A stretch of 64,000 bases of DNA from Lingula anatina (taxonomy: Eukaryota; Animalia; Brachiopoda), in contig CM120641.1 in the NCBI GenBank assembly GCA_051362555.1, positions 41,980,401 through 42,044,400 of the forward strand. The letters run 5' to 3'. Each line of letters starts with the position of its first letter. Positions within the stretch are counted from its first letter, which is position 1. Positions 18,713 through 60,400 of this stretch are shown here, one piece after another. The notes below the pieces were generated by a model that saw only the letters and a list, made by a program, of their open reading frames with translations, was not told the origin of the DNA and did not search any database. The position numbers were made by a program, and so were the translations under genes.

Positions 18713-18810
18713 TAGCTAGATATCTAATAGTGCTCTTTATATGTATCATTCCAGGTGTCCATCATCAACTAGATTAGTTCAATAAAGTTGAAGATATACA
18801 TATTTATCTA
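18713..18810 (+). repeat. 5' LTR (98 bp, TAG...CTA termini)
   Basis: Identical to 24068-24165. Contains TCATTC (Inr-like, 18746-18751) and AATAAA (18781-18786). Confidence 0.95.
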
Positions 18811-18897
18811 TGACGGACACCAGATTTCCCTTGCCACTGTGTAGATAACCGAGTTAGATTTTCAGCCATTATTTGTAGAGTCTTCAAAACAAACAGG

Positions 18898-21800: not shown

Positions 21801-23793
21801 TCAGACTCGCTACTATGTATTGGGCTGTAAAGATTTGATTGTTGCCACAGACCACAAACCACTGGTTCAGGTGCTAAATGATAGGTCACTCACCGAAATT
21901 CACAACAGGCGACTACTCAATCTCAAAGAAAAGACACTAGCATACAGATTCACCATAGTGCATGTCCCAGGGAAGAAGAATCCCGGCCCAGATGCAGCAT
22001 CCAGACACCCTGCTGGTTGGCCAAGTAGAATGCATCTACCAAATGAACCATCTGACAGTGACACCATATCCTACATGACTGTGCCTCCACAGGTCACATT
22101 GGCTAGTTTATACCAAGACACAGCAGACACAGACTTTGCTGATGATGCTTGCACCATTGCTGCTGCGTCTGCCTCACTGGATGCTGCTAACATTATTGTC
22201 ACCTGGGATATGGTCCGAGATGCCACCTCTTCAGATACAACATTACTTACACTAATGCAATACCTTGAGAAAGGCTTTCCAGAAGATTGCAGAGAACTCC
22301 CCATAGAGATACGTCCATACCACCGTCACACAGCAAGCCTGTGTGTTGTTGATGGAGTGATACTCATGGGTCAACGAATTGTTATCCCAAGGGCCTTACG
22401 CACACCAATCCTCAATGCCCTCCATGCAGCTCACCAGGGTATAAGTGCTATGCAGTCCCGAGCAGCAGACTCTGTTTTTTGGCCCAATATCTCAGTTGAC
22501 ATTGCTAGAGTTAGGGACCAATGTGCACATTGTCATCGCATGGCTAAATCAAACCCGATGCAGCCACCATCTGATATTAAACAACCAGACTACCCTTTCC
22601 AAATGATCTGCTGTGACTACTTCACATACAACAGTAAAGATTATGTTGTCATTGTCGACCGATATTCCAATTGGCCAATGGCTTTTAAAGCAGAAGGAGG
22701 CGCAGAGGGTCTAATCAGAAGATTGCGTGAAACTTTCGTCACATTTGGAATACCAGAGGAGTTAACCTCAGATGGTGGACCACAATTTACTGCGGGGAAA
22801 ACACAAGAATTTCTTAAAACCTGGGGTGTTAAACACAGAATTTCGTCAGTTGCCAACCCTCATGCTAACTGTAGAGCTGAGATAGCTGTCAAAACTGTGA
22901 AGCGAATGCTTGCAGACAATATAGCCCCAACAGGATCCCTTGATGTTGACAAGTTTCAGAAAGCCATGCTTATGTACAGAAATTCTATTGACCCACAAAC
23001 AAAGGCCTCCCCAGCATTAATTATATTTGGACGGCCTATTCGCGATGCCATTCCAATACCCATGGGAAGGTATTCCCCACACGAAACATGGGCAGAGCTG
23101 ATGTCACATCGAGAAAGAGCACTTGCAAAACGTCATTCCAGAGAGCATGAACGCTGGAGTGAGCATACTAGGATCTTACCACCATTGAGGGTTGGAGATC
23201 ATGTGTACTTACAGAACCTTGTAGGAAATTATCCCCGGAAGTGGGAGCGAACTGGAATAGTAATTGAAGTAAGACAGCACCACCAGTATGTCATCAAAGT
23301 GGATGGTTCAGGCAGGGTGACTATCCGCAACCGGCAGCATCTTAGGAAGTTCACTCCATTTGTTAGCAGTGACTACTTCCCCATGATTGAGATGGCCCTC
23401 AAGGAGAACACAGTGCCTGAGCAACCCACTAAGTTGGTCCATCACGAACCTGGTGACCTTTATCTGGGAAAGAAGCAAACCCATGACAACCCTGTACAGG
23501 TCACACAGCCAAAAAATCCAGATGAACCTACTGTGCCATACCAGGATGCTTCTACTCCATCGCAATTATCTGAAGAGCCAGATTTGAGTGCCCCAGATCC
23601 CAGTGGCCAGGATGCCCCTACTGTCACCAAACAACGCACCAGTGGTGGTTTGCCACGTGCATTAGCCCGTTTGCTACCTCATAACAAGCCAGGAACTACA
23701 GAAATGCTTACTCCATCCAGACCAAGCCGTCATTCTAAAGAGACTGACATACAGGAAACTCGGAAACCGGCTTCAACCAGGGACTCTTCTTGA
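18898..23793 (+). CDS. Gag-Pol polyprotein (Gag zinc knuckles, aspartic protease, RT, RNase H, integrase)
   Basis: CAKCGVKGHYTDLC knuckle; ADTG protease; RT RRTVDL...DAWNGYH...TTFITPWGRY...PQG...CVDD; RNase H TDWS...RYAPIEGEALA...TDHKPL; integrase H-x3-H...CAHC, CCDYF, SDGG, RAE. Domain order PR-RT-RH-IN is Ty3/Gypsy. Confidence 0.97.
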   Translation: MPQLQCPVVGCDWQSQDLDAAFAGALTAALQMHGQTAHPTQPAPQKLKLDPPQISTGSDPDQWSAFTRQWNMYKAGMNIAENMVATALFYCCDQDLRTDIMRDLRDNVANMAEADLLAAIRRLAVKDESTLVHRIRLSKMTQTPGTSIRTFLASLRGQAALCRYTATCKEEGCTHMFDYSDEIIKDNLIRGIADPEIMSDLLGDPKTDRTLEETVSFIAQKEQGKVTKSAVGDNANAASNVQKSPLVQTDGKPKCWACGGLAHGPRNDRRARARKCEAWGFMCAKCGVKGHYTDLCSKCNTCGEWGHRDKSSRLCQQGRGYRNPPKPRTQTGQTKGTDRADTNYVFDQLCTASENNPPRRHKPNKTAFLDHHIFDGQWIARPSKPHPMVLVRMTPLPADHAAFGYPMQDTSTLKPVNMSMIADTGCQSSIIPLKSAMALGIRKEDLLPVKLVMRGAIRENLGVMGGIAVSVSVKDENNHIRTSRLMCYVSESIEKAFLCREALTDLGIIKPDFPSATHITHTASIGPTDEVPCTCPRRREEPPPLPTSLPPGLKALEENVEVLKDWLLDYYGATTFNTCEHQPLPLMKCEPLQLHVDPDAKPVAVHKPALVPIHWQERVFADLERDVRIGVLERVSPNTPTTWCSRMVVTGKADGTPRRTVDLQQLNRHSVRQTHHVPTPFHLANRIPQGVKKTVTDAWNGYHSVPIREEDRHITTFITPWGRYRYKVAPQGFLASGDAYNQRFDAIITDFPNKVKCVDDTCMWANSVEEAFFQACKWLDLCARNGITLNPKKFQFAQDAVEFAGLAITPTNIQPSDKFIDAIRKFPTPTDISGARAWFGLINQGAYAFSMARQMKPFRKLLKPSTKFEWTDELDNLFHQSKEVIIEEMKEGVRLFDPNRQTCLSTDWSVDGVGFFLMQKYCQCTSKTPACCHNGWKLCLVGSRFTHPAESRYAPIEGEALAVAYALHQTRYYVLGCKDLIVATDHKPLVQVLNDRSLTEIHNRRLLNLKEKTLAYRFTIVHVPGKKNPGPDAASRHPAGWPSRMHLPNEPSDSDTISYMTVPPQVTLASLYQDTADTDFADDACTIAAASASLDAANIIVTWDMVRDATSSDTTLLTLMQYLEKGFPEDCRELPIEIRPYHRHTASLCVVDGVILMGQRIVIPRALRTPILNALHAAHQGISAMQSRAADSVFWPNISVDIARVRDQCAHCHRMAKSNPMQPPSDIKQPDYPFQMICCDYFTYNSKDYVVIVDRYSNWPMAFKAEGGAEGLIRRLRETFVTFGIPEELTSDGGPQFTAGKTQEFLKTWGVKHRISSVANPHANCRAEIAVKTVKRMLADNIAPTGSLDVDKFQKAMLMYRNSIDPQTKASPALIIFGRPIRDAIPIPMGRYSPHETWAELMSHRERALAKRHSREHERWSEHTRILPPLRVGDHVYLQNLVGNYPRKWERTGIVIEVRQHHQYVIKVDGSGRVTIRNRQHLRKFTPFVSSDYFPMIEMALKENTVPEQPTKLVHHEPGDLYLGKKQTHDNPVQVTQPKNPDEPTVPYQDASTPSQLSEEPDLSAPDPSGQDAPTVTKQRTSGGLPRALARLLPHNKPGTTEMLTPSRPSRHSKETDIQETRKPASTRDSS

Positions 23794-24067
23794 AGTCTCA
23801 TAATACTTGACTTTTCTTTTTTAAATGACTTTAGCTAGATATTTAATTTGATTTTCTTTTAGCATATAGCTTTTAAAAGTTGTTGTTGTTGCTTCAATTT
23901 CCTTATTCAATTGACTTTTGAAAAGAACTATGGAGGACCCATGTTCACAAACTTTAAAAGCTCCCCAGGGGAGGAGACAGAGGACTTTAAAAAAAAGAGG
24001 AATGAGGACTGACATATAAGTGACGTTTTATACATGCCCGTATAAAACTTCCCCCGGGGGAAGGAGA

Positions 24068-24165
24068 TAGCTAGATATCTAATAGTGCTCTTTATATGTA
24101 TCATTCCAGGTGTCCATCATCAACTAGATTAGTTCAATAAAGTTGAAGATATACATATTTATCTA
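24068..24165 (+). repeat. 3' LTR (98 bp)
   Basis: Identical to 18713-18810; preceded by the polypurine tract and followed by TSD CTAAT. Confidence 0.95.
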
Positions 24166-45398: not shown

Positions 45399-47140
45399 TT
45401 ACTAATTATAAGGTTTTTTTATGTTTTTTTTTTCACAGCTATAGCAGTGGACACAGACACAATGTTGCACTGATAATTTTATTGGTAATTCTTTGGAAAT
45501 GAGTTCAGTGTAGTAACTGTCTATGACTTAAAGCTGTTTTAGATCAGTTTTATTTACATATAATATTATATAAATATTCTGTGATGAACTTTGAAGGGTA
45601 AGATTGACAAATGTTGTAAATTCAAAGTTTAACTGATGACCCTAAATATGATGAAACATAAATTATATTGCAGGATATTTTGTTCAGTTTGTAAATATCC
45701 TTAACTCAATATCATATGCCAAAATTAGTAATGCAATTACTACCTCCTGCCTAACAATATATTTTATGTCTAATGAAGTGAGTAATGCACGTTACCCTTC
45801 AGTATTTTTGTCCAAGTGAAGAAAAATTTTTCTTAAAGAGGTTTATTTTAAGGGTACTTTGAATTGAATTGAATTTGAATTGAAATTCAAAACAATGATC
45901 ATCAATAAGTGCATGTGCTAGTACTTTTTATTGGCACAATTTACGGAAAATTGATAATTTTATACAGCTCTTTTAATATTGTTTTGTTTACTTATCATTA
46001 GAGAGACAAAAAATCTGATTATCTGAAAATTATTTTCTTATTTTTACTGAACAGAAAATACTTCATTTTATAAAATCATGGACCAGCTGTAATATGTGAC
46101 TCTTAAAATACCAACAGGGAACTTTCTAAATGTCTTTTCACATTGTAAATAATAACTTAGCAATATAGCTGTACCAGTATTTTTTTTTTTTTTTTTTTGA
46201 GTAATTGGCAAATTGATACCCTGACTATTACCTAAAAGAGATCCCTAATAAGTTATAGGAAGCACTGGGCTTGACATGGTCAGTTGATGAAATTCTGCCA
46301 AAAAAAGCATGATGGGTGCTTTTGGAGAACCACGCAAAAGATTCTGCTACAGGTGTGTTTCTAAGATGGAACACTTGATGTGAAATGTCTTTTTAATATA
46401 AAAGTGTAAATATTTTTCATTACACACGATGTATGCTGTATATGATATGTAAACAAAAAGGGTAAATATTTTTGTACCAGGTATTTCAAACTAAACAATT
46501 TATATGCGAATTGTTGATGCTATAATAAAAAAATACATTTAGGAAAAGTTACTCGTATTAGAATGGTGACCTCTGATATTTGAATGATGTGATAATGTCC
46601 AAGTGAATTATTTTTATGCATATTTACACTGTACTTATTTTGCAACTGTGATGCAGTATAGATGTAAAGCACTGTAGCAGATAAAATAATTGTCAGAAAT
46701 AATTTTCATTAGCTAAATTATGTACAGTTAGTGCTGTAATGGATTAAAATTTTATAGTAACATATGTTGTTTCATTTCTTTTATAATCTTTTTTATTATT
46801 AATTTGTTGTAGCTTTGTGTGGTAAAAAGGCAGCATCATCGCAACTGAAAACGTGTCGAGAACGCGCTGAATGTCGCATCAGAAGGGACAAATACTTTGC
46901 AATGGCGCAAATACATGACGTGGCACCAGAAATGGATATGATACTTATGATACTGTGAACATAGCTTATAATTCACGAATTTGTCTGGTAGAAAATGTAC
47001 CTTGACGCCAATAGAACAATGCACAAATATTGCGACACTTTGGTTCGGCGCGTGAAGGGCATTGATTTCATGGATTGACTTAACGTCCAAACCCAATAAT
47101 AGAGGTGCAAATGAGGTCACGGGCATGCTCTTAAAGATAT

Positions 47141-49101
47141 TGTAACGCGCGAGGTCGCCGCGTCGGCGCACGACCCCGGACGCGACGTGGGAATATGATG
47201 TTGAAACAGGGAAAGTATATCCCGGTCCTTCGAAATTAACAACAAAGGCATATGGTTACAGTTCAAATATTATTATTATACACCAATTTGCTTTCAATAA
47301 AAGAGATATTTCAAGAGATATATACAAGGCCTAAAGCCATAGAGTTCGTAATAAAATCGAGCAACGTTTTTCATGGTATGGTAGCGTAGCGCAAATCAGC
47401 ATCTTTCTTCATGGTAGCGTAGCGCAAATCAGCTTCTATCTTCATGGTAGCGTAGCGCAAATCAGCTTCTATTTTCATGGTAGAAACGACGACCGTTGAA
47501 CGCGGCGGCGTCATCTAGGGGATGGCGACGATATCTTACGCCTGGGGACGGCATAACGACGACCGTTGAACGCGGCGGCGTCATCTAGGGGATGGCGACG
47601 ATATCTTACGCCTGGGGACGGCATAACGACGACCGTTGAACGCGGCGGCGTCATCTAGGGGATGGCGACGACATCTTACGCCTGGGGACGGCATAACGAC
47701 GACCGTTGAACGCGACGGCGTCATCTAGGGGATGGCGACGATATCTTCATGGTGGGCGTCTGTTCAGTTTCTCAGCATTCCGGCTGTTATTCGCAATGGC
47801 AGAGGAGCTCGGTACGCATCACACGGCCGCAGCCGCGGGAACGGAACCTGAATGGGATTCACAGACTGTACCCTCGGTCTGTGAACCTGGTTCGACGACT
47901 CGACTCTGAAGTGGACACGGCGACACTCTCCACCAGCAAAATCTCACGGGTACGGTTCATGCACACAACAACTCAGTCCTGGCACTTTTTCCACCCACGG
48001 GCGGCGAGATCGTAGGGGAACGCTGAGGCCTTCAGTTCAATCAGTGAACATCTTGGCGGCAGTAAACCCCGCGGACCCGGAACCTGTGACTGTTAGCTCT
48101 GAAAGAGCAAGGTTAATCTTCCGTGGCGCATTTCCTGCATTATCTACGCCCTGGACCCGTCTGTCCCATGGGAAGTTCCCAGTCTCGCCTCGGCGGGAGC
48201 GGAGGTTTCCTAGGGGAGCACCGTGATCGAGGGTTAGGACGTCCTTCACCATTACTGTCTCTTTTCGCTTTCCGGTAGCTGCATGCAAAGGGACACGTCC
48301 GGCGGACCGAACTAAAACAAAATAAGAACATAACACTGCCCCGATCATACACGGGGGAACACTGCGCACTCGGGCTGGCATTTTCCCTTCAGCTCCGAGC
48401 TGTCGACGGCGCCTCCTACATGACGTCTTGGACCCGATCAGCCTTTCACCCAAAATCGTCCATGCCGCAGCGGCTTCCTTGGCCAGGATCCTAAACATCT
48501 GCAACCAAGGGATCCCATGATCTGACAGCCACCACTTGTCCTCCGGAGCGCGTCACGGCGAATGCAGTTACAGGATTGCGTTAAGAAACTCGCTAAAAAC
48601 TAACGGTACATGTAGCTGACGTAACTGTCAGCCAAAATACTACAAAAAAAAATAGACTAATCTTCGAAAAGAAAATTTTTCACAATTTTTCCCGACTACG
48701 TCGGGTAGCCCGAGGGCTACCCGCAGCCCGTTTCACTCACTTTTTGTCTCTCTCTTGTGCTTTATGACTGTCACTCAAAGATACTTTCTTTCTTCCCCGC
48801 TTCAACTCGAAGAACTTGAAAGACGCCGCTAACGATCAGCTGAGCGGTTATTTATAGCGACCGTGACGTCATGACCGCAGGTCGCGCGGTCACACTTTCT
48901 GACGGCACGTCGACACGGTTGGAACGTCATTGTTGATTCTTTCCCGTACAGCGGTACAAATCTAACGTTTCTTTCTTTGTATAAAATCATGGGGTATTTG
49001 GCATCTTTTCGTCTTTAAACGGCTCTAGAACGGCAACTAAAGTTGGACTGGTAAATTTTTGTCGGCATCGGTGTAGAGCTATTGGAGCCCCGTTCGTTAC
49101 A
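47141..49101 (-). repeat. 3' LTR (1961 bp)
   Basis: Direct repeat of 54544-56434, longer by exactly one 70-bp unit (offset changes from 7403 to 7333). Confidence 0.96.
47379..47747. repeat. LTR-internal tandem arrays: 33-bp unit x3, then 70-bp unit x3.75
   Basis: TGGTAGCGTAGCGCAAATCAGC.. at 47379, 47412, 47445. AACGACGACCGTTGAACGCGGCGGCGTCATCTAGGGGATGGCGACG.. at 47485, 47555, 47625, 47695. The 5' LTR has one fewer 70-bp unit. Confidence 0.95.
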
Positions 49102-49222
49102 TTGCCCCCATCCTTTTAAAATTGATTCTCCCGAATCAAAATTAGTTTCTTCACAGGAACAACAGAAGCCAAAAAGAAAACGTTCAATTATTTAATGACA
49201 TTCAGAATTTCATACAAAATTC

Positions 49223-49758
49223 TCAATAGTGATACTCCTTTCGGAGTTCAAATCTCCCATCTGGGTACTTAATTCTTCTAACAATTATCAACCTCTTGGG
49301 TCTCAGAGGCTCTTCATCATCTGGATCGTCGTCTTCATCATCATCTTCTTCTTCATCTGTCCACTCTGTGGGAGGTGACTCTGGGGGATCTGAGAATTTG
49401 ATGTTCTTCCCTCCAGGGGCTGGTCTGCTGTAAACTTTGGGTAGTATTGGCTTCAACTGCACGCCTTCTTTTTCCTCCTTCACTGCAGGTGGGTCTAGCG
49501 CAGGTGTTGACTCTTCTGGTGATTGTTCCAAAGATGCCTCTTCTTCCAGGCTGACCTTCACTACCAAGGGGCTATTGATGTGTGCAATTTGTACAGTGGG
49601 TAGAGGATGCCGCTTTTGCAGATGTTTTTCCAGGTAGTCCTTGTTTATCAGTATCCTGTGGCACAGATTACAGAATGCATGGATTTCTTGCTCATGTTTC
49701 CTCTTCTTGTCTCTTTGAGTGAAAGAGGCTTGGCATAAACGACAGGTCAGCAAGGGCA
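49223..49758 (-). CDS. ORF3 of the LTR element: two C2H2 zinc fingers + Pro/acidic region + basic tail (178 aa if spliced)
   Basis: CRLCQASFTQRDKKRKHEQEIH and CNLCHRILINKDYLEKHLQKRH; acidic run DEEEDDDEDDDPDDEE; basic RPKRLIIVRRIK. No ATG; preceded by the acceptor TTTTTTTGTCACGTTTCAG (AG at 49760-49759). Confidence 0.8.
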
Positions 49759-49806
49759 CTGAAACGTGACAAAAAAATAGAATTTACATTTTAATTGTAC
49801 GTCCAC

Positions 49807-52800
49807 CTAGTAACACGCTTTCAAATTGTCGTAGTGTACTACTCTAGGTGGACTTCTGGAATTCAGCTGTATTCGATAAATTTGGGCGGACAATCTCTCC
49901 ACGACCTCATAGGGACCTAGCCACTTGGGTTGAAGCTTTGGACTGACACCTTTCTTCTTCGTGAGATTGCAGTACCACACCAAGTCGCCTTTCTTGAACA
50001 CGTCTCCGTGGACTCTTAAATCGTAATTTCGTTTCTGAATTACAGCACTCTTCTGTTGTTTCTCCGTCGCTCTCCTCCATACTTCTGTCAGATTTTCTCG
50101 AAGATTGTATGCGTAATCTGTCTGGTTTTGATCTGCCGAGGGTGGCTCTTCAATCATTGCGTGGACGGGTAAGTCTACTTCTCTTCCCAGCATCATCATG
50201 TTGGGCGTTTCGCCAGTGCTGGAATGTCTAGAGCTTCTGTATGCCATTAGGAAAAGCGGAATCTTCTCATCCCAGTCCTTCTGGTTCCTGCTGGGTTCTA
50301 GAAACTTAGTTATGCCGTTTATTAGGGTCCGATTGAAGCGTTCCACAAGGCCATCTGACTTGGGGTTAAAGGGAGCGGTCCTGGTCTTGTTTATACCCAT
50401 CATGGCACAGACCTCTTGCATAACTGTAGACTCAAAATTTCTACCCTGATCAGAGTGGATGCTGCCAGGTGTCCCAAACCTTGTAAAGACCTCCTCCACT
50501 AGGACTTTGGCTATTGTGTTGGCCTCTTGATTTGGCAATGGAAATGCTTCTGCCCACTTGGTGAAATAATCGCATACCACCAAGATAACTCGGTTACCTC
50601 GGTTACTCTGGTTTAATGGTCCCAAGATGTCCATTCCTATCCGTTCCATAGGAGCTCCCACGAAAAACTGTTGTAATGGCGCCTTAGGTTTTCTTCCATA
50701 TGTCTGTTGCTTTTGGCAAGTTCTGCAATTTTTGCACCAGGACCTTACATCATTGGCTACACCATACCACCAGTATCGTTCCTGAATCCTGGCTAATGTT
50801 CTCTCTGCACCCATGTGACCGGCAGTAGGATGCGAATGGAAATGCTCCAGGATCATCTTTCGATATACCTTAGGGACAATCACTAGGGGTCTTGTCACCG
50901 ATCCATCGTTTGATTCTTCTGTTGTGCATAACACTCCAGATTCTAGAGACAACTGGTCCCATTTAGCTACAAGGGTGCGGATGGCTGGAGACCATGGCTC
51001 CTGGCCATACTCTAATGGTCCAGATCCTTTACGCATGGCTACTAGAACTGGTCGGATATCTGCATCCTCTCCCTGGGCCTCGGCCATCTCTTCTAATTTC
51101 ACCAAAGGGGCAATGGAGATACTTCTTATGTGAGCTGGTTGAGGGTGCATCTGATCCTGGCGAATCCAGCGTCTCTTCATCACACGGCCCTGTTGTTCGG
51201 GTTCTTCTTCTCGTCCACACTGATGGCAAGGGTAACGGGATAGCCCATCCGCATTGCCATGACTCCTTCCAGCTCGATGTTCTAGGTTAGGTTGGTACTC
51301 TTCTACTACTTGTATCCACCGGGCCAACTGTCCCTCGGCATCTTTCATTCTGAGGAGCCAAGTCAGGGCTGCATGGTCGGTACGCAAAGTAAAATCTTGT
51401 CCATACAGGAAGCTGCGAAAATGCTTCATGAAATGAATTGCTGCCAGAAATTCTTTTCTTGTGACACAGTAGTTTCGTTCTTCTTTTGTGAAGGCCCTGC
51501 TAGCATAGGCTATAACTTTTTCTTGTCCCTCTTGGACTTGAGACAACACTGCACCCATACCAAAATTACTGGCGTCTGTATCTAATATGTAGCGACCTTC
51601 AATGCTTGGATAAGCAAGAATGGGGGAAGAAATAAGTCGTTGCTTCAGTTCTTGAAAAGAGTCTTCACACTCTTCATTCCATAGGAAGAGATTTCCCTTC
51701 TCTGTCAAACGGTGTAGGGGTCTGGCTATATTGGCAAACCCTTTTATGAACTTCCGGTAATAGGACGCTAACCCCAGAAAACTTCTAACTTCCGTTACCG
51801 TTCCGGGGGTTTTCCACTCCTTTATCACCTCGATCTTGTCTGGGTCTGTTCTAACCCCGTGCTTGGAGACAACGTGACCGAGGTACTTCACTTCTGACTG
51901 AAACAGGTGGCATTTCTTTGGCTTCAACTTCATCTTGGCCTCTCGGAGACGACGGAAGACCTCTTTGACCCTTTCTACCTCCTCTTCGAACGTTTTTCCA
52001 AAGACTATGATGTCGTCCAAGTACACGAGGAGAATTTTCCAGTGGAGCCCACTCATCACTTGCTCCATGAGTCGTTCAAAGGTGGCTGGCGCGTTGCACA
52101 TCCCAAACGGCATAACCTTCCATTGAAAAAGCCCGCCTCGGACAGCAAACGCTGATTTCCTCTTGGCATCTTCATCCAATTCCACCTGCCAGTAGCCACT
52201 GGCCAAATCAAATGTAGAAAACCACTCTGTCCCCGACAGTGCGTCAAATGTGTCATCAATTCTCGGGAGAGGGTACGAATCTTTCACGGTGACAGAGTTC
52301 AGTTTCCGGTAGTCAACGCAAAATCGTGTAGACCCATCTTTCTTGGTCACCAGCACGATCGGTGATGCCCACGGACTCGCAGACGGCTCTATGACGCCCC
52401 TTTCTAACATCTCTTGCACATGTTTATCAGCTTCATCTTGCTGTGATCTAGGCAACCTTCGGTATCCCTGACGAATAGGTGTTGCATCTCCAGTGTTAAC
52501 AGAATGTTGTACGATGCCCGTGCAGCCAAGGTCGAAGTCATCTTTTGCAAAGACATCTTGGAACTCTGTAAGCAATCGTTTAATGGCCTCTGTCTGTTGT
52601 CGGTCTAGACAGCTCGTGCTTCTTTCCAACAAATCAAGGAGAAACTCAGGGAGGACCATTTTCTCATTTGTCTTTTGGAGAGTGTGTACCTTAAGTCCCC
52701 CTCGTTTGATCACTGCGATGTCTTTATCTTCCACAGTAGAAAGAGTACCCACTGTAGTCCCCTTGTACAGAATCACTGCTTCTTCCCCCGGATTGAAAAC

Positions 52801-53502
52801 CTGAACTGGGAACTCTTCTGCAGTGAGATCAACCAGAAGTCTGGCCACCATCAGTCCTCGTGATGCTAGTCCACCTTCTTCCAGGGGTTCCATAAGTCCC
52901 TGGGTCGTCTCTGCAAGACCGCTTGTCTGTCCGCGTACTGCAGGTAGCACTACTTCATGACCTGGCAGGATACGGATGGTCTGTTTGATATGGACGCGGG
53001 CACAAAATGGCTCTGCATTTTGATCTAGGCAGGGCAGCTTTTGTCCCTCACAGTGAAGATTGAAACCTTGAAAGTCTAGAACGCTTGCTGTTGACACCAG
53101 AAAATCTAGGCCCAAAATACCTTGGTTTTGTATGTCCGCCACAATAACGTCTAACTCAGTGGGTTGATCCTGCACGTCAATGGATACTTTCATTCGGCCC
53201 AATACGGGTAGCGGCTTGCCATCGGCTTGCTGTACTTGTTCTGTCATTTGACGGAGTTCTGTTTTCTTGTCAACGGCAATTTTTCTGTAACACTCAACGC
53301 TTAAAAAGGTATCTGAAGACCCTGTGTCAACTAAAAATAAAACATCAACATTTTCAACTTTACCAACAATAAATAACCCATTCGAAACATTATGTACATT
53401 TGTTCGTCCTTCTTTGACTGGGACCTTCAGTGAGTATTGGGTCTTCTCCCGGTCCCTCGGGTGGACCACTGGCCGTTTCCCTCCTTGGCTGGTTGAGGGC
53501 AT
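49807..53502 (-). CDS. Pol polyprotein (protease, RT, RNase H, integrase with GPY/F motif), expected to be expressed by -1 frameshift
   Basis: FLVDTGS; RFCVDYRKLN...YLDD; LDTDAS...RNYCVTRKE...TDH; H-x6-H...CRTC, GMDILGP, HSDQG, VER; WLGPYEV. Overlaps the gag 3' end. Confidence 0.97.
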   Translation of the reverse strand: MPSTSQGGKRPVVHPRDREKTQYSLKVPVKEGRTNVHNVSNGLFIVGKVENVDVLFLVDTGSSDTFLSVECYRKIAVDKKTELRQMTEQVQQADGKPLPVLGRMKVSIDVQDQPTELDVIVADIQNQGILGLDFLVSTASVLDFQGFNLHCEGQKLPCLDQNAEPFCARVHIKQTIRILPGHEVVLPAVRGQTSGLAETTQGLMEPLEEGGLASRGLMVARLLVDLTAEEFPVQVFNPGEEAVILYKGTTVGTLSTVEDKDIAVIKRGGLKVHTLQKTNEKMVLPEFLLDLLERSTSCLDRQQTEAIKRLLTEFQDVFAKDDFDLGCTGIVQHSVNTGDATPIRQGYRRLPRSQQDEADKHVQEMLERGVIEPSASPWASPIVLVTKKDGSTRFCVDYRKLNSVTVKDSYPLPRIDDTFDALSGTEWFSTFDLASGYWQVELDEDAKRKSAFAVRGGLFQWKVMPFGMCNAPATFERLMEQVMSGLHWKILLVYLDDIIVFGKTFEEEVERVKEVFRRLREAKMKLKPKKCHLFQSEVKYLGHVVSKHGVRTDPDKIEVIKEWKTPGTVTEVRSFLGLASYYRKFIKGFANIARPLHRLTEKGNLFLWNEECEDSFQELKQRLISSPILAYPSIEGRYILDTDASNFGMGAVLSQVQEGQEKVIAYASRAFTKEERNYCVTRKEFLAAIHFMKHFRSFLYGQDFTLRTDHAALTWLLRMKDAEGQLARWIQVVEEYQPNLEHRAGRSHGNADGLSRYPCHQCGREEEPEQQGRVMKRRWIRQDQMHPQPAHIRSISIAPLVKLEEMAEAQGEDADIRPVLVAMRKGSGPLEYGQEPWSPAIRTLVAKWDQLSLESGVLCTTEESNDGSVTRPLVIVPKVYRKMILEHFHSHPTAGHMGAERTLARIQERYWWYGVANDVRSWCKNCRTCQKQQTYGRKPKAPLQQFFVGAPMERIGMDILGPLNQSNRGNRVILVVCDYFTKWAEAFPLPNQEANTIAKVLVEEVFTRFGTPGSIHSDQGRNFESTVMQEVCAMMGINKTRTAPFNPKSDGLVERFNRTLINGITKFLEPSRNQKDWDEKIPLFLMAYRSSRHSSTGETPNMMMLGREVDLPVHAMIEEPPSADQNQTDYAYNLRENLTEVWRRATEKQQKSAVIQKRNYDLRVHGDVFKKGDLVWYCNLTKKKGVSPKLQPKWLGPYEVVERLSAQIYRIQLNSRSPPRVVHYDNLKACY

Positions 53503-54431
53503 TCTCTGGCAAAATGACCTTCCTGTTGACAGTTGTAGCAGATTACTCCCTTTGCCCTCCTGAATGGCTGCTTACCGAAGAATGAGACAGGCTTGGATCT
53601 TCTGAGGTCGGCAAGCTCTCTTCTTAAAGCATGGACTTCATCCTCCAGTCTTTTCACCTGGGTCTCGTCTTCTTCAGTCTTCTGTACTACCCGCAGTTGC
53701 CGTTTACCAGCCTCGCTCAGTCTTTCTGCATCCAGAAATGACTCCATGCCTGCTGCCACCGTCACTGCATCTTCCAGAGTCTTACAATGAGCCTGAAAAA
53801 TACATGATTTCAATTCTTTGCTCACCACGGCTTCCTGGAAATGTACCCGGGCCAGGCGATCCTGTGACATCACATTCAACTCTGGATAGGCTAGGGCAGT
53901 GAGTCTTCGGATAGCTTGTCCCAATTCTCGCAGGCTCTCATTTGGTTTTCTTCGACGATGACGCAGCTCTGCCACAAAGATTTCTGCTCCCTCTCCCGGA
54001 CCAAACCTTCTCTGTAATAAGTCTACCAAATCTTTGTAGGACAGTCTTTTCCCCCCGGCTTGGGCATCACTTAGAATGGCTTGAGCTTCTCCCTTCAAAC
54101 TGACTGCGAGAAATGCTGACTTCTCATAACTGCTCCAACCATTGATGATCGCACAGCCCTCAAAGTGCGCCAGGTAATCGGACCACGGACTGCTTCCATC
54201 GTAGCGGTCGGGAATTACGCTTGGCCTTCCTTTCTGGACTCCTGTGCTGCCTGGAAATACGTCTCTAGGTGGGAATGGAGAACTCACCAGTCTCTTTCTA
54301 GGTGATGGACCCGCTAACAAAGTATCACTCTCACCGTCTATCTCTGCGTGGCGGCCCTCGTGGTCTCGCAGATTCAGGATGACCTCACTCTCACTTGACT
54401 GGTCAAAGTTGTCTACCTTAACATTTTCCAT
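53427..54431 (-). CDS. Gag protein
   Basis: First ATG is at 54431 (MENVKVD; the ORF-track start at 54449 is a TTG). PDRYDGSSPWSDYLAHFE...NGW capsid-like motif; CYNCQQEGHFAREC zinc knuckle. Confidence 0.93.
   Translation of the reverse strand: MENVKVDNFDQSSESEVILNLRDHEGRHAEIDGESDTLLAGPSPRKRLVSSPFPPRDVFPGSTGVQKGRPSVIPDRYDGSSPWSDYLAHFEGCAIINGWSSYEKSAFLAVSLKGEAQAILSDAQAGGKRLSYKDLVDLLQRRFGPGEGAEIFVAELRHRRRKPNESLRELGQAIRRLTALAYPELNVMSQDRLARVHFQEAVVSKELKSCIFQAHCKTLEDAVTVAAGMESFLDAERLSEAGKRQLRVVQKTEEDETQVKRLEDEVHALRRELADLRRSKPVSFFGKQPFRRAKGVICYNCQQEGHFARECPQPAKEGNGQWSTRGTGRRPNTH
53475..53481 (-). other. -1 ribosomal frameshift slippery heptamer G GGA AAC
   Basis: In the gag frame (GAG GGA AAC) inside the gag/pol overlap, followed by a GGTCC...GGACC stem. 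Confidence 0.8.
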
Positions 54432-54524
54432 TCTGACTTCTTCTGACAAGAGATATTAAAAAAAATAATTATAATAATTATCATCCATTCATGACCAAGT
54501 AACCATAGCACATTTCGAAGGACA

Positions 54525-54542
54525 ATCCCACCGCTGCCACCA
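54525..54542 (-). other. Primer binding site complementary to the tRNA-Leu 3' end
   Basis: TGGTGGCAGCGGTGGGAT, 1 nt downstream of the 5' LTR. Confidence 0.9.
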
Positions 54543-54543
54543 A

Positions 54544-56434
54544 TGTAACGCGCGAGGTCGCCGCGTCGGCGCACGACCCCGGACGCGACGTGGGAATATG
54601 ATGTTGAAACAGGGAAAGTATATCCCGGTCCTTCGAAATTAACAACAAAGGCATATGGTTACAGTTCAAATATTATTATTATACACCAATTTGCTTTCAA
54701 TAAAAGAGATATTTCAAGAGATATATACAAGGCCTAAAGCCATAGAGTTCGTAATAAAATCGAGCAACGTTTTTCATGGTATGGTAGCGTAGCGCAAATC
54801 AGCATCTTTCTTCATGGTAGCGTAGCGCAAATCAGCTTCTATCTTCATGGTAGCGTAGCGCAAATCAGCTTCTATTTTCATGGTAGAAACGACGACCGTT
54901 GAACGCGGCGGCGTCATCTAGGGGATGGCGACGATATCTTACGCCTGGGGACGGCATAACGACGACCGTTGAACGCGGCGGCGTCATCTAGGGGATGGCG
55001 ACGACATCTTACGCCTGGGGACGGCATAACGACGACCGTTGAACGCGACGGCGTCATCTAGGGGATGGCGACGATATCTTCATGGTGGGCGTCTGTTCAG
55101 TTTCTCAGCATTCCGGCTGTTATTCGCAATGGCAGAGGAGCTCGGTACGCATCACACGGCCGCAGCCGCGGGAACGGAACCTGAATGGGATTCACAGACT
55201 GTACCCTCGGTCTGTGAACCTGGTTCGACGACTCGACTCTGAAGTGGACACGGCGACACTCTCCACCAGCAAAATCTCACGGGTACGGTTCATGCACACA
55301 ACAACTCAGTCCTGGCACTTTTTCCACCCACGGGCGGCGAGATCGTAGGGGAACGCTGAGGCCTTCAGTTCAATCAGTGAACATCTTGGCGGCAGTAAAC
55401 CCCGCGGACCCGGAACCTGTGACTGTTAGCTCTGAAAGAGCAAGGTTAATCTTCCGTGGCGCATTTCCTGCATTATCTACGCCCTGGACCCGTCTGTCCC
55501 ATGGGAAGTTCCCAGTCTCGCCTCGGCGGGAGCGGAGGTTTCCTAGGGGAGCACCGTGATCGAGGGTTAGGACGTCCTTCACCATTACTGTCTCTTTTCG
55601 CTTTCCGGTAGCTGCATGCAAAGGGACACGTCCGGCGGACCGAACTAAAACAAAATAAGAACATAACACTGCCCCGATCATACACGGGGGAACACTGCGC
55701 ACTCGGGCTGGCATTTTCCCTTCAGCTCCGAGCTGTCGACGGCGCCTCCTACATGACGTCTTGGACCCGATCAGCCTTTCACCCAAAATCGTCCATGCCG
55801 CAGCGGCTTCCTTGGCCAGGATCCTAAACATCTGCAACCAAGGGATCCCATGATCTGACAGCCACCACTTGTCCTCCGGAGCGCGTCACGGCGAATGCAG
55901 TTACAGGATTGCGTTAAGAAACTCGCTAAAAACTAACGGTACATGTAGCTGACGTAACTGTCAGCCAAAATACTACAAAAAAAAATAGACTAATCTTCGA
56001 AAAGAAAATTTTTCACAATTTTTCCCGACTACGTCGGGTAGCCCGAGGGCTACCCGCAGCCCGTTTCACTCACTTTTTGTCTCTCTCTTGTGCTTTATGA
56101 CTGTCACTCAAAGATACTTTCTTTCTTCCCCGCTTCAACTCGAAGAACTTGAAAGACGCCGCTAACGATCAGCTGAGCGGTTATTTATAGCGACCGTGAC
56201 GTCATGACCGCAGGTCGCGCGGTCACACTTTCTGACGGCACGTCGACACGGTTGGAACGTCATTGTTGATTCTTTCCCGTACAGCGGTACAAATCTAACG
56301 TTTCTTTCTTTGTATAAAATCATGGGGTATTTGGCATCTTTTCGTCTTTAAACGGCTCTAGAACGGCAACTAAAGTTGGACTGGTAAATTTTTGTCGGCA
56401 TCGGTGTAGAGCTATTGGAGCCCCGTTCGTTACA
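54544..56434 (-). repeat. 5' LTR (1891 bp)
   Basis: Direct repeat of 47141-49101, adjacent to the PBS. Confidence 0.96.
56184..56204 (-). promoter_or_regulatory. LTR promoter: CRE palindrome TGACGTCA + TATAAA
   Basis: TGACGTCA at 56197-56204 immediately upstream of minus-strand TATAAA at 56189-56184; the same arrangement is in the 3' LTR. Confidence 0.65.
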
Positions 56435-57415
56435 ATATATATACCCAGATTACGTTTTCACAGAGGGTCACAAATTAACATACCGCCTGATCAAAGATTC
56501 CGAATTAACGAAATTATTACCAGAAAAATCAATTATCCATTACAAAAATATACGTACGGAATATCACTTCTAATAATCTTATATTTCGAGTGTAATAGTA
56601 AATAAAACAGATGGTATAAATGACAATAAATTTATTTGAAAACAAATAATTGATACTTAACACCATATAATTGAAGTCAAAATATCAATTCTTAGAGCAC
56701 TTAAATTAACGCAATTTACAGCGATGTAGAATAAGTATAGAAAAAGTAATGAATACGATTTTTTGTTATCTATAAACAAGACGGTAATATAGAAACGCAT
56801 GGGCACATAACTACCAAATTTATAAAATTACACATCAAATAAAATTTTCCGATTTTGAAATTTAGAAAAATACCACAAATATTGTTTAAAAAAAAAGGCC
56901 AATTATTGGTGAGGAATATTTGTAAACCTAGTTGCGTTTTCGATACATTTCTCTTTATGCCAAATGTCAACTGTACTTCATTCGTCAACCAAAATACTCG
57001 AAGAGAATTATTCCCATTTACAGCAATCATTAGCCGCCGTGAGGGGCCTCCTCTTTTTTTTTTTTTTTTTTTTTTTACAAATGATGAAAATCAAACGTAG
57101 ACGTGACAAACATCGATCGCAAAACTCTCCTTCTGAATCTAATGTCAAAGTAATGTCGCTTTATTATGCTGTTATTAGACGACCGATTTCTTGAAATGAT
57201 TATTTCTAATTCTTTTTAAGTGATAGACAAATACACTACAAACCTATCCAAAATGCACGATTCAATGAAAATCAGTGTATATATACGAAAAAACTATACG
57301 TCTATATAATAAATAATGCTCACACTTTTAAAGCCAAACAGCGTTCTTTTGTATGTGCATCACATATAAGACATTGGCGAAATGTGGCAAGAGAGTGAAA
57401 TCCTAAACCAAATTC

Positions 57416-60400
57416 TTAAAGTTTTTCACTCAAAAGGACTTCTGTGTCACTGTTGGATATCTTATCGGGGTCAGATTCGGGTATGTCGACGGAGCTAGAT
57501 CCAGGTATGTCGGCGGAGCTAGATCCAGGTATGTCGACGGAGCTAGATCCAGGTATGTCGGCGGAGCTAAATCCAGGTATGTCGACGGAGCTAGATCCAG
57601 GTATGTCGGCGGGGCTTGAACCAGGTATGTCGGCGGGACTAGACCCTGGTATGAGAGCGGGGTCAGATTCAGGTATGTCAGCATACAGTCCTTCCTCTCC
57701 TTCGAACGCAGGGTTATCATACTCCTTGTCTGGTCCTGTCATAACAACCGGTATATTAAACGTGCCGCTTGCCGAGCCCTCCGCCGACTCGTTAATAGTT
57801 TCAATGTTCTGCGCCTTGACAGCTTTCTTCAGTTGAAACGCTCGGGTGAGCTGGATGGCTCTGGCCGCCCCTTTCCACTTGTTACGTAATTTGGAAATCT
57901 TCTCTTCTTGGAACACCTGGTCCCACTCATCAGCTAAGCTTGCTAGAGCTTGCTTGCGTTTACGATCCTGGTAGCTGGCAGTCATTGTGTTTCGCCGTCC
58001 ATGTTGTTGCTGAAGTTTCTCAGGCCCTTGGTCGGACAATGCCAAGAAGCGCTCAACAAATGCTTTATTCATAGTGGCATATCCCTCCTTAACTGTCTTC
58101 TTCTTTTTCTTGATGTGTTTCGCGAATGACTTCTTCCTCTCTCTGGCAAAATTGAACTCTTCGTCGGAGGCACCGGAAGTGAAGCTGCACACCGACATTC
58201 TGTCGGAATCGTCATCGCCCTGCGGAAGGCGTTGTAAGTCGCGCACAAGAGCGATTTTTGCGGCGGTTTGATCGAGTTTTCCTGAGACGGGGGTTGTAGA
58301 CATGATGTGCCAGAAGGTCAGCAGACGATGAGCTATCATCCCAAGAAGTTGAATAAGGAGAACCAACAGGAAGAATATCAAGAAAACCGTCCCGATAGGC
58401 TCCAACTTCACAGGCTTGGAAGGGGGACTATCGCCGCATTGGAACGGCCAAGGAAGAGAAAGTCCGTGTCCGTTCTCATCTTCTTTTTGTGTTTGAAGCA
58501 CAAAGATCACCACCACAAAAATGGCGTTCAGAAGAAAGATGGCGAATGTGACCTTGTTGCGCAGTTCTTTTAGCTCGGCAGCCATGTGCTCCTGGTGCTT
58601 TGGGTCGTTTTCCAGGGGATACAAGTATTGTTTGATGAGCTCTTGCCAAAATTGTGTCTCTGCCTCTTCTTGGAGAACTATAGGCCCGTCCTTAAGGCCT
58701 TCGTCCTCCGTCCACAATGGATTGACGAGTTCGTCGCGTTCTTCTTCCTCATACATTGGGTTAACTGGATCAAAACAACAAAAAACAATAAGAAAGTAGA
58801 AAAAAAGGATTTAAAAACAATGTGGAGAATCATACCAGGTTTTGGAAATATATCGATGTAAAGTCACGTAATATTTCAACGGCTCCTTTTCCAAACATAA
58901 ATATTGTAATTGCTTTGGACATATATGTTGTCATTGTTGTTTTTTTAGATAGTACCAAAAACTTAAAAACCTAATGGCTCTACAAGTATTTAAGAATATA
59001 CTGGCCCCAAACAATGTCAAATAACTGAACATTAATTACTTAATAAGATTGTAATTTTACTGGTATTTATGTACGAACAGTGATTAATCTCAATTTCTAT
59101 TCGACCATTGTTTTTTATGTTTTTTGCTTAAAATAAAACTGATATAAAATTTTTACATACAACAAAAGACAAACCTACCGGTAAACACATCCTCCTCCAA
59201 GATATCTAATTTTGGGAAGTCTTCGTTCTCCATCGTAAAAGACGGTCGACGATCCTTCACCATACTCTCAGTGCGCACACGTAAATTACTCTCTGCTGTG
59301 GAGCCTGACAAACCTGGATGGCATTTAAGAAATATATTTTGAAAGAGAAACCAACATCCTTTTGTGAATAATGTCACGATAACAATTAAAATTAAAATTA
59401 TTCAAATAGAAATGACTTTATTTATTTAAATAATATGCGACAAAAAATATTCGGAAAATGAAAGACGTTTTGCACAAGCAACATTTATGCATTTATACAT
59501 TTTTATATACTTCCCACAATATGTCCAAAAGGGTGCCAATTGCAGTAATATTTGATCAACTCTTTTGTTCACGCGAAATCAACACAAAAAATTAAAGAAA
59601 AAAATCACCTCTTCCAGCAACCAACGCCGTTCTCTGATTCAGCAATTTCCTCTCCATTTCTTCCATGCGAGAAAACAAGCCGTTCAACTTTTGATTCATG
59701 CCTTCACCATTGTCACGTGGACAGCAGATACACCGGAAGAGTTTTCCAAACGTAAATTTGAACCCATCCTCGCCCTTTTCCGCCGTCGCTGCACTGAAAA
59801 GTTTCATCAGGGCAGCACTGGCTGAGTTATCTGTCTTCTCTTTCGTGTTTTTGGCTTGCTGATTGCCTTTATTGGGAGTTGGCATCTCTGCAACCTTGAC
59901 CTCTCTCGTGCCCCATGAGACCACGTGCAGGTTGCACATGGAGTATATAAAAAGCAACAGGTACATACTGGGAATGAGCAGATAATACAACACACCGGCG
60001 AACACACAGGCGAATTCCTGAGGATGGAGGATAGCAGCCAATAGAAAGGCGCCAGCCACAAGGAAAAAGAACAAGGCGGTAGGGGAGCAGGGTCCTTGTA
60101 CACTTATCTGCAGACTGATGCTGACCAGAACCAGTGCCATCACCAAGGCGTAAATAGAAGACATTATGGCTGCTACAAATAGCTGAAAAATAAATTGATC
60201 AAATATTCCAATAAAAACCGATTCCACTGATTACATGACGGACAGCAAAAAGTCATTTGTGCCTCTTAATGTTTATAGGACTGAACAAATTGCCATGAAG
60301 TGTTTTTATAATTTTTTTCTCCATTGCTCCACCAAGTTCTTAACCTTAGAATCCATATTAAACCCGTTTATGAACCACTTTTGTCTACTTTAGTACAAGG

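What the first reader, a model, noticed from the sequence alone, without database searches (positions are those of the whole stretch)
49223..56074. LTR retrotransposon with a C2H2 zinc-finger ORF in the env position whose start codon would be created by splicing
Seen: between pol and the 3' LTR lies an open 178-codon frame with two tandem C2H2 fingers, a Pro/acidic region and a basic tail. It has no obvious signal peptide or transmembrane segment and no in-frame ATG. It begins right after a strong acceptor (...TTTTTTTGTCACGTTTCAG|TG CCC TTG, exon start 49758). The 5' LTR has a consensus donor ~110 nt downstream of its TATA box (GAGACAAAAA|GTGAGT, exon end 56074). Joining them gives ...ACAAAAA+TGCCC = AAAAATG CCC, an in-frame ATG in an A-rich initiation context. 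Known: errantivirus env ORFs are made from spliced subgenomic RNA, and complex retroviruses encode regulators this way. Inference: this element encodes its own nuclear DNA-binding regulator (trans-activator, repressor or anti-silencing factor) instead of Env. I do not recognise this as a described Ty3/Gypsy architecture.
Basis: partly seen in the sequence, partly recalled or inferred. Interest (0 to 1): 0.9.

Follow-up and report, generated by a model that had tools for sequence, protein, structure and literature searches.

The report
Zinc-finger accessory gene in Gypsy retrotransposons
A young, intact jumping gene of the Gypsy type carries, where retroviruses keep their envelope gene, an extra gene for a small two-zinc-finger protein; many distant relatives carry a similar gene, it is likely made from a spliced RNA, and it probably regulates the element's own expression, as accessory genes of complex retroviruses do.

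Summary
Observation confirmed. The element is an intact Ty3/Gypsy insertion with near-identical LTRs. [quoted passage not shown] The acceptor (49758) ranks 3rd of 624 AGs and the LTR donor (56074) 2nd of 440 GTs; joined, they give an in-frame A|TG. The feature is not a one-off: 13 of 51 related Gypsy loci carry a sense tandem-finger ORF after pol (0 antisense, 0.1 expected), mostly right behind a strong acceptor; a second set gave only 1 of 18, plus 6 TatD-nuclease ORF3s. One subfamily is conserved at 35-64% identity. The junction itself is unshown: four RNA runs gave about 20 genuine reads, none on it. Function is inferred: most likely a nuclear, LTR-directed activator or anti-silencing factor; a Rev/CERV-like exporter is the main rival. 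Spliced non-env ORF3s and splice-built start codons are known; a C2H2 ORF3 in animal Gypsy elements was not found in ten literature searches (Repbase unchecked). This scan earlier noted C2H2-JmjC ORF3s in fungal elements.

The parts
54544..56434 (-). 5' LTR, 1891 nt, TG...CA; short U3 (about 270 nt), very long U5; CpG-rich (o/e 1.27 against 0.29 in the flank)
56182..56204 (-). CRE-type palindrome TGACGTCA (56204-56197) and TATA box (56189-56182)
   Evidence: CRE label recalled
56068..56077 (-). Splice donor; exon 1 ends in A at 56074 and holds no ATG
   Evidence: rank 2 of 440 GTs; use inferred
55945..56064 (-). Predicted stem-loop just after the donor (z -3.3; 2 of 44 windows passed -2.5); further acceptor at 55972
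54781..55080 (-). U5 tandem repeats: 70-bp unit x2.8 (x3.8 in the 3' LTR) and 33-bp unit x3.2
54525..54542 (-). Primer-binding site, shared with relatives such as L023, L033, L007, L081 (tRNA-Leu type, label recalled)
54442..54465 (-). Strong acceptor 11 nt before the gag ATG; the unspliced leader holds 36 ATGs, so gag-pol mRNA is likely spliced too
   Evidence: rank 2 of 624 AGs; inference
53427..54431 (-). gag, 334 aa, one CCHC knuckle
53475..53481 (-). -1 frameshift heptamer G GGA AAC in the gag frame
49807..53481 (-). pol: protease, RT, RNase H, integrase with SH3; intact; stops right after SH3 with no C-terminal tail
49759..49780 (-). Polypyrimidine tract and AG acceptor of ORF3; exon starts with TG at 49758
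   Evidence: rank 3 of 624 AGs
49223..49758 (-). ORF3, 178 codons with the splice-built ATG: fingers 49744-49607, acidic/Pro disordered region (net charge -20), basic C-terminal beta-hairpin 49291-49229
49102..49117 (-). Polypurine tract
   Evidence: sequence
47141..49101 (-). 3' LTR, 1961 nt; same as the 5' LTR but for one more 70-bp unit
56435..56438 (-). 4-bp target-site duplication ATAT (second copy 47137-47140)

Best explanation
This intact Ty3/Gypsy retrotransposon carries a third gene for a two-C2H2-finger protein in the env position, likely translated from a spliced RNA whose junction builds the start codon, and the protein likely acts in the nucleus on the element's own LTR to switch it on or keep it from being silenced. 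Steps: (1) shown: intact element, open ORF3, ranked donor and acceptor, in-frame A|TG on joining; (2) shown by comparison: the same slot holds tandem-finger ORFs behind strong acceptors in many divergent Gypsy lineages, inherited with pol; (3) inferred: transcription from the LTR TATA box, with one donor serving a gag-pol mRNA (acceptor 54442) and an ORF3 mRNA (acceptor 49758), while the unspliced RNA keeps the PBS and is the packaged genome; (4) inferred: the fingers target element DNA, and the acidic, aromatic-containing disordered region recruits host co-activators, giving positive feedback like foamy-virus Tas or sequence-specific anti-silencing like plant VANC. My odds: real selected accessory gene 0.9; spliced A|TG start 0.7; DNA-level activator or anti-silencer 0.45.
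For: Tandem fingers in a sense frame within 1.9 kb after pol in 13 of 51 usable loci, 0 of 51 antisense, 0.1 expected from resampling (29 of 80 loci dropped as too short). In 16 of 20 hand-picked ORF3 carriers the acceptor before the first CxxC is in the top 3% of all AGs of the locus (4.9 expected), and first in 11 of 20. ORF3 similarity follows integrase clades. The L023 subfamily is conserved at 35-64% identity with fixed finger residues and short motifs; its finger 2 keeps K(-1), N(3), R(6) in 6 of 8 members where the pattern was found, a base-reading pattern (recalled code). Layout fingers + acidic disorder + basic tail, no membrane segment. The LTR is CpG-rich in a CpG-poor host region. 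In L081 the tandem-finger ORF follows an internal CCAAT/E-box/TATA promoter, and ACTCGG is a top 6-mer both there (4, expected 0.1) and in its LTR (6, expected 0.4), the layout of foamy-virus Tas (PMC517496 abstract). Fingers also occur fused to TatD nuclease in sister lineages, which fits a targeting module.
Against: No junction read and no read on the finger region in 4 of 9 listed RNA runs, 6-26% of each read, with only 22 reads at 95% likeness or more over the element: inconclusive. The window's fingers have a 2-residue linker and Lys at the hydrophobic helix position of finger 1; none of 21 ORF3s has a TGEKP-type linker, so canonical two-finger DNA wrapping is unlikely. The window's ORF3 matches the L023-subfamily profile only in the fingers (probability 2.7%), and its hairpin does not match that family's hairpin profile (84 of 2000 shuffles as high): common descent is not shown. 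The second locus set gave 1 of 18 tandem. CpG-rich LTRs and LTR repeats occur in finger-less relatives too; the window's LTR has no enriched 6-mer outside its repeats; ACTCGG also occurs 7 times in L081's second ORF. LTR donors and gag acceptors are not clearly conserved in relatives. The acceptor-to-start test (13 of 18 against 4.5) is partly circular, as starts were chosen with acceptors in view.
Confidence: 0.45

Rival explanations
1. ORF3 is a Rev/CERV-like factor: it binds the unspliced genomic RNA (for example the U5 repeats or the stem-loop after the donor, which splicing removes) and licenses its nuclear export or shifts splicing.
For: The element has a strong donor and four strong acceptors, and the PBS lies in the removed part, so the genome RNA must escape splicing. 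CERV of Cer1 sits in the same slot, comes from a spliced mRNA, has a cysteine loop and does this job (PMC10309623, sections 4 and 15). Non-canonical finger linkers suit RNA or protein binding (recalled).
Against: The U5 repeats are not unusually structured (z -2.3 or weaker). L081 appears to use an internal promoter instead of splicing. No sequence likeness to CERV was tested. Strong gag acceptors are rare in relatives.
Confidence: 0.22
2. ORF3 is a protein adaptor or counter-defence factor (decoy for host zinc-finger or piRNA silencing, dynein light-chain-linked transport, or tether of the integration complex to chromatin).
For: Closest packing matches by rmsd include non-DNA-binding pairs (ZNF295 Z 4.2, rmsd 2.3; TRAF-type Z 3.2, rmsd 2.7; all Z under 5). 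The L023 subfamily keeps an invariant S/T-x-x-Q-T motif that resembles LC8-binding sites (recalled). ORF3 diverges fast. Sister lineages fuse a finger to TatD.
Against: The window's ORF3 has no QT motif. Fold scores are too low to rank. No partner identified.
Confidence: 0.18
3. ORF3 is a self-repressor that limits copy number or times expression.
For: Same DNA-binding layout; the element is nearly silent in the runs read.
Against: The acidic region looks like an activation domain (recalled); no repressor domain found.
Confidence: 0.1
4. ORF3 is a recently captured or decaying host zinc-finger fragment with no role; donor and acceptor are coincidence.
For: ORF3 is CpG-poor like the host flank (7 CpG against 22.7 expected from pol codon use; o/e 0.24); no close homologue found; no reads on it.
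Against: Intact frame ending just before the PPT; recurrence in 13 of 51 relatives with acceptors; conserved subfamily; no host gene matches beyond generic fingers; low CpG is not general among the other 18 ORF3s.
Confidence: 0.05

Closest known systems
CERV of the C. elegans Ty3/Gypsy element Cer1 (PMC10309623; abstract and sections 4, 6, 15 read)
   Same: [quoted passage not shown]
   Different: CERV is large, restricted to Caenorhabditis, with G-like and M domains and a C4 loop, and is needed for export, not transcription. Here: 178 aa, tandem C2H2 fingers, many lineages; function untested.
Errantivirus env-F subgenomic RNAs (PMC12992720; passages read)
   Same: Third ORF from a spliced RNA; in the springer subclade the env exon is spliced to an AU dinucleotide, so the junction builds the start codon.
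   Different: Product here has no signal peptide or membrane anchor and is not Env; the split is A|TG, not AT|G; the donor lies in the LTR.
Non-env ORF3s of bdelloid rotifer LTR retrotransposons (PMC5408684; abstract, first part and passages read)
   Same: Family-specific third ORFs, described as typically from spliced messages, including nucleases.
   Different: Those are GDSL esterase, DEDDy exonuclease or membrane proteins; the main text has no 'zinc', 'finger' or 'C2H2'.
Foamy-virus Tas/Bel1 (PMC517496 abstract; search listing)
   Same: Element-encoded DNA-binding activator lying between the structural genes and the 3' LTR; acts on LTR and internal promoter. L081 shows a similar layout.
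   Different: A Retroviridae gene; not known to me as a C2H2 protein (recalled); activity here is inferred only.
VANC anti-silencing proteins of Arabidopsis transposons (PMC5735166 abstract)
   Same: Element-encoded, sequence-specific factor; targets often in tandem repeats; fits a CpG-rich LTR in a methylated host.
   Different: Plant DNA transposons (recalled), other protein family; repeats and CpG richness here are not specific to finger-bearing elements.

Membership tests
Ty3/Gypsy LTR retrotransposon (Metaviridae) | pol order PR-RT-RH-IN | tested here: met
Ty3/Gypsy LTR retrotransposon (Metaviridae) | Two LTRs TG...CA, PBS, PPT, target-site duplication | tested here: met
Ty3/Gypsy LTR retrotransposon (Metaviridae) | Named clade (Osvaldo/Gmr1, 412/mdg1, CsRN1, MolGy) | not testable with these tools
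   No named reference set; some hits carry the automatic name 'transposon 412'; the window's place in the quick tree is unresolved
Errantivirus (env-bearing) | ORF3 is an F-type envelope with signal peptide, furin site and membrane anchor | tested here: not met
   No hydrophobic segment; fingers and disorder
Errantivirus (env-bearing) | ORF3 from a spliced subgenomic RNA | tested here: inconclusive
   Signals strong and recurrent; no junction read at very low depth
C2H2 zinc-finger protein | CxxC-x12-H-x3-5-H with beta-beta-alpha fold | tested here: met
   Pfam score under the curated cut-off
Classical tandem DNA-binding C2H2 array (Krueppel type) | TGEKP-type linker between fingers | tested here: not met
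   2-residue linker; 0 of 21 ORF3s with TGEKP-like linker
Classical tandem DNA-binding C2H2 array (Krueppel type) | Sequence-specific DNA binding | not testable with these tools
   needs EMSA, SELEX or ChIP
CERV-like export factor | G and M domains with C4 loop, large protein | tested here: not met
   178 aa, only two fingers and a hairpin are folded; no direct comparison with CERV sequence made
CERV-like export factor | Needed for export of unspliced RNA | not testable with these tools
   bench test
L023 ORF3 subfamily (found here) | Profile match beyond the fingers (W-x-x-x-DPG, GVQT, hairpin) | tested here: inconclusive
   Only fingers align; motif profiles no better than shuffles; predicted hairpin shared, but the model used that family's alignment

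The most novel reading that the evidence does not exclude
A broad group of animal Ty3/Gypsy retrotransposons are 'complex' elements that encode their own C2H2 zinc-finger transcription factor in the env slot, expressed by splicing (with a junction-built start codon here) or from an internal promoter (L081), which binds the element's own CpG-rich LTR to activate it and keep it unsilenced; sister lineages fuse the finger to a TatD nuclease. This would mirror, on the transposon side, the host zinc-finger arms race, and would parallel foamy-virus Tas outside the retroviruses.
Probability: 0.4. Interest if true: 0.88.

Novelty: new variant of a known kind. Interest (0 to 1): 0.72.

Why it matters
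LTR retrotransposons are usually drawn as gag-pol with or without env, and hosts as the side that owns zinc-finger regulators. A recurrent element-encoded C2H2 protein in about a quarter of one sample of related animal Gypsy loci would add a class of accessory genes that annotation misses, because the ORF is spliced or lacks an ATG. It makes an open question testable: how do animal LTR elements switch themselves on or escape methylation and piRNA silencing? This copy is intact and very young, with one predicted junction and a 178-aa protein, so RT-PCR, reporter and binding tests are simple.

Tried and rejected
No host genome is held, so other copies and dN/dS could not be examined. No RNA holder was listed; nine same-species runs were offered. 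Four were laid: most laid reads were low-complexity matches to the acidic codons at 49325-49358, and the listed joints there are artefacts; the other five runs remain unread. Direct searches with the window's ORF3 found no close relative (0 of 223 candidates; 30 generic multi-finger proteins; weak feature hits; nothing). Viral contigs gave nothing for integrase or ORF3; genome contigs nothing for ORF3, so the reverse test, that ORF3 homologues always lie behind pol, was not possible; P0152-P0162 have no DNA context. Fold searches gave only generic fingers; the hairpin was not searched alone. Self-association of the hairpin was not modelled. Rejected: read-through or frameshift from pol (a stop lies in the ORF3 frame 24 nt after the pol stop, so two recoding events are needed); the gag-internal donor 54288 as ORF3 start (no in-frame ATG); hairpin homology by eye; LTR repeats or CpG richness as a mark of finger-bearing elements; U5 repeats as a structured RNA element. 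The tree is the quick one; the careful search did not finish. Literature: ten full-text searches; none listed a paper whose title or abstract start describes a C2H2 ORF3 in animal Gypsy elements, and 'TatD' had 0 occurrences in the 20 of 188 papers listed. Term look-ups found no 'zinc' in PMC5408684, PMC13524379, PMC12801592, PMC6238403, PMC8556966, and only unrelated uses in PMC3383448, PMC12992720, PMC11952523, PMC13269885 (passages only). Repbase, GyDB, Dfam, subscription journals and supplements were not seen and may already note such ORFs.
Full report
The element. On the minus strand lies a complete Ty3/Gypsy retrotransposon from 56434 to 47141. The LTRs (1891 and 1961 nt) match at 100% over 1547 nt and differ in the number of 70-bp units; the target-site duplication is ATAT. 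Gag (334 aa, CCHC knuckle) and pol (PR-RT-RH-IN) are open and linked by a -1 frameshift heptamer in the right phase. The insertion is therefore very young. It lies about 1 kb behind the stop codon of a host gene that resembles chitin synthase (recalled; Pfam gave no hit). The flank is CpG-poor (o/e 0.29), the LTR CpG-rich (1.27). No host genome is held. Pol relatives at up to 60% identity come mostly from unnamed metagenome assemblies; named ones are animals.

The observation. The frame 49783-49223 has no Met; from the acceptor it gives 178 codons, more than any of 5000 shuffles of the gap. It encodes two C2H2 fingers with a 2-residue linker, an acidic and proline-rich disordered region and a basic end predicted as a beta-hairpin, with no membrane segment. 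With a simple recalled scoring matrix the acceptor ranks 3rd of 624 AGs and the donor 2nd of 440 GTs. Exon 1 has no ATG, and its last base, A, joins TG to give an in-frame ATG five codons before the first cysteine. The donor has A where most donors have G, which is what the start codon needs. The other top acceptors lie in U5 (55972, 55644) and 11 nt before the gag ATG (54442); the unspliced leader holds 36 ATGs, so gag-pol mRNA is likely spliced from the same donor (inference).

RNA. Four of nine same-species runs were laid, 6-26% of each. Only 22 reads were 95% alike or better; none joined 56074 to 49758 and none lay in 49596-51077. At this depth the result neither supports nor refutes the junction.

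Relatives. An integrase alignment fetched the best 80 of 471 confirmed loci from a metagenome scan that stopped at 22 of 64 parts. Of these, 51 had a complete integrase end and 600 nt or more behind pol; 29 were dropped. A tandem-finger pattern occurred in a sense frame in 13 of 51, in 0 of 51 antisense, with 0.1 expected; a single canonical finger in 15 of 51, 0 and 0.6. Among 20 hand-picked carriers (window included), the best acceptor before the first CxxC was in the top 3% of the locus's AGs in 16 (4.9 expected) and first in 11. In most, an in-frame ATG follows within 0-37 nt, where the window has its A|TG; L064, like the window, has a top-ranked acceptor and no ATG before the fingers, and its protein relative P0159 shows the same start region. 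The best AG of the pol-ORF3 gap lay within 20 nt of the start in 13 of 18 (4.5 expected), a partly circular test. A second set of 30 loci, host contigs inside bacterial genome bins, gave 18 usable ones: 1 tandem-finger ORF (L081), none antisense, and 6 long ORF3s ending in TatD. The frequency thus depends on the sample.

Descent. On a quick integrase tree the finger label (15 rows, two of them weak) needs 10 changes against 13.9 for shuffles (1 of 500 as low); carriers lie in several well-supported clades with an unresolved backbone, and the window's own place is open. ORF3 likeness follows those clades: L023/L033/L037, L047/L051/L055/L046, L044/L057/L049/L078, L025/L022, L007/L059. A profile search with five ORF3s found 13 proteins, 12 of them ORF3-like, one being L023 itself; the L023 subfamily is 35-64% identical with fixed finger ligands, a W-x-x-x-DPG motif in acidic context, a GVQT motif and a terminal hairpin. 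This is the pattern of a selected, fast-evolving gene. The window's ORF3 shares the layout but matches that profile only in the fingers, so one origin is possible, not shown.

Mechanism. Small finger pair, acidic disorder with an aromatic residue, basic tail and no membrane anchor describe a nuclear regulator. Finger 2 of the L023 subfamily keeps K(-1), N(3), R(6) in 6 of 8 members scored. L081 places its finger ORF behind an internal CCAAT, E-box and TATA promoter, and shares the word ACTCGG between that promoter and its LTR, the layout of foamy-virus Tas (PMC517496, abstract); this is one element, and the word also occurs in its coding DNA. I rank an LTR-directed activator or anti-silencer first (0.45). 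The strong internal splice signals, with the PBS inside the removed part, make a Rev/CERV-like exporter the main rival (0.22; PMC10309623). Non-canonical linkers and weak fold matches to both DNA-binding and adaptor fingers leave a protein adaptor open (0.18), a repressor at 0.1 and neutral capture at 0.05. LTR repeats and CpG richness do not single out finger-bearing elements.

Known and new. Spliced third ORFs without env function are known (CERV, PMC10309623; rotifer GDSL and DEDDy ORF3s, PMC5408684), and a junction-built start codon is known for env in the springer subclade (PMC12992720, passage). Ten searches listed nothing on a C2H2 ORF3 in animal Gypsy elements; repeat databases, closed journals and supplements were not seen. 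Earlier unchecked notes of this scan report C2H2-JmjC third genes in fungal elements. Interest 0.72.

Noticed in passing
L044:7501-9000, L049:4096-7077, L078:6627-9269, L087, L089, L090, L092, L095, L097 (after pol): Nine related Gypsy loci carry a long ORF3 ending in a TatD nuclease domain (Pfam E 1e-11 to 1e-41), several with a single C2H2-like finger and a helical domain in front. 'TatD' had no occurrence in the papers listed.
   Followed up: partly
L081:1900-5376: Tandem-finger ORF (329 codons) behind an internal CCAAT/E-box/TATA promoter, then a second 735-codon low-complexity ORF before the LTR; ACTCGG repeated in promoter and LTR; CRE-type palindrome before the LTR TATA box, as in the window.
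   Followed up: partly
window 54442-56074: Predicted 1.6-kb intron that removes U5 and the PBS and puts the gag ATG near the cap; would separate gag-pol mRNA from packaged genome RNA.
   Followed up: partly
L023:4150-4200, L033:6640-6680: Invariant S/T-x-x-Q-T motif in the L023 ORF3 subfamily, resembling dynein light chain LC8 sites (recalled); absent from the window's ORF3.
   Followed up: partly
L071:6673-8849, L080:4862-6610, L075:7268-10371, L030:5261-6064, L074:1782-2717, L019:2040-2450, L007/L059: Other ORF3 types in the same sample: env-like with signal and membrane segments, two exonuclease-like ORFs, an esterase-like ORF, coiled-coil ORFs and a CxxC-x-H-x-x-x-C ORF (labels by eye; Pfam gave no clear hits).
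   Followed up: no
window 18713-24165 (+): A second, unrelated intact Gypsy element with 98-bp identical LTRs and a single 1659-codon frame; its Gag begins with a C-x4-C...H-x4-H motif; no third ORF.
   Followed up: partly
window 57416-60230 (-): Last exons of a host gene resembling chitin synthase (recalled), ending in a 24-bp tandem repeat; the element inserted about 1 kb behind its stop, same strand.
   Followed up: no
window 49223-49758: ORF3 has 7 CpG against 22.7 expected from pol codon use, unlike most related ORF3s; unexplained.
   Followed up: partly
window 49807: Integrase stops right after its SH3 module, without the acidic linker and Arg-rich tail seen in most relatives; some relatives end in a chromodomain-like (L020, L071, L080) or PHD-like (L078) module.
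   Followed up: no
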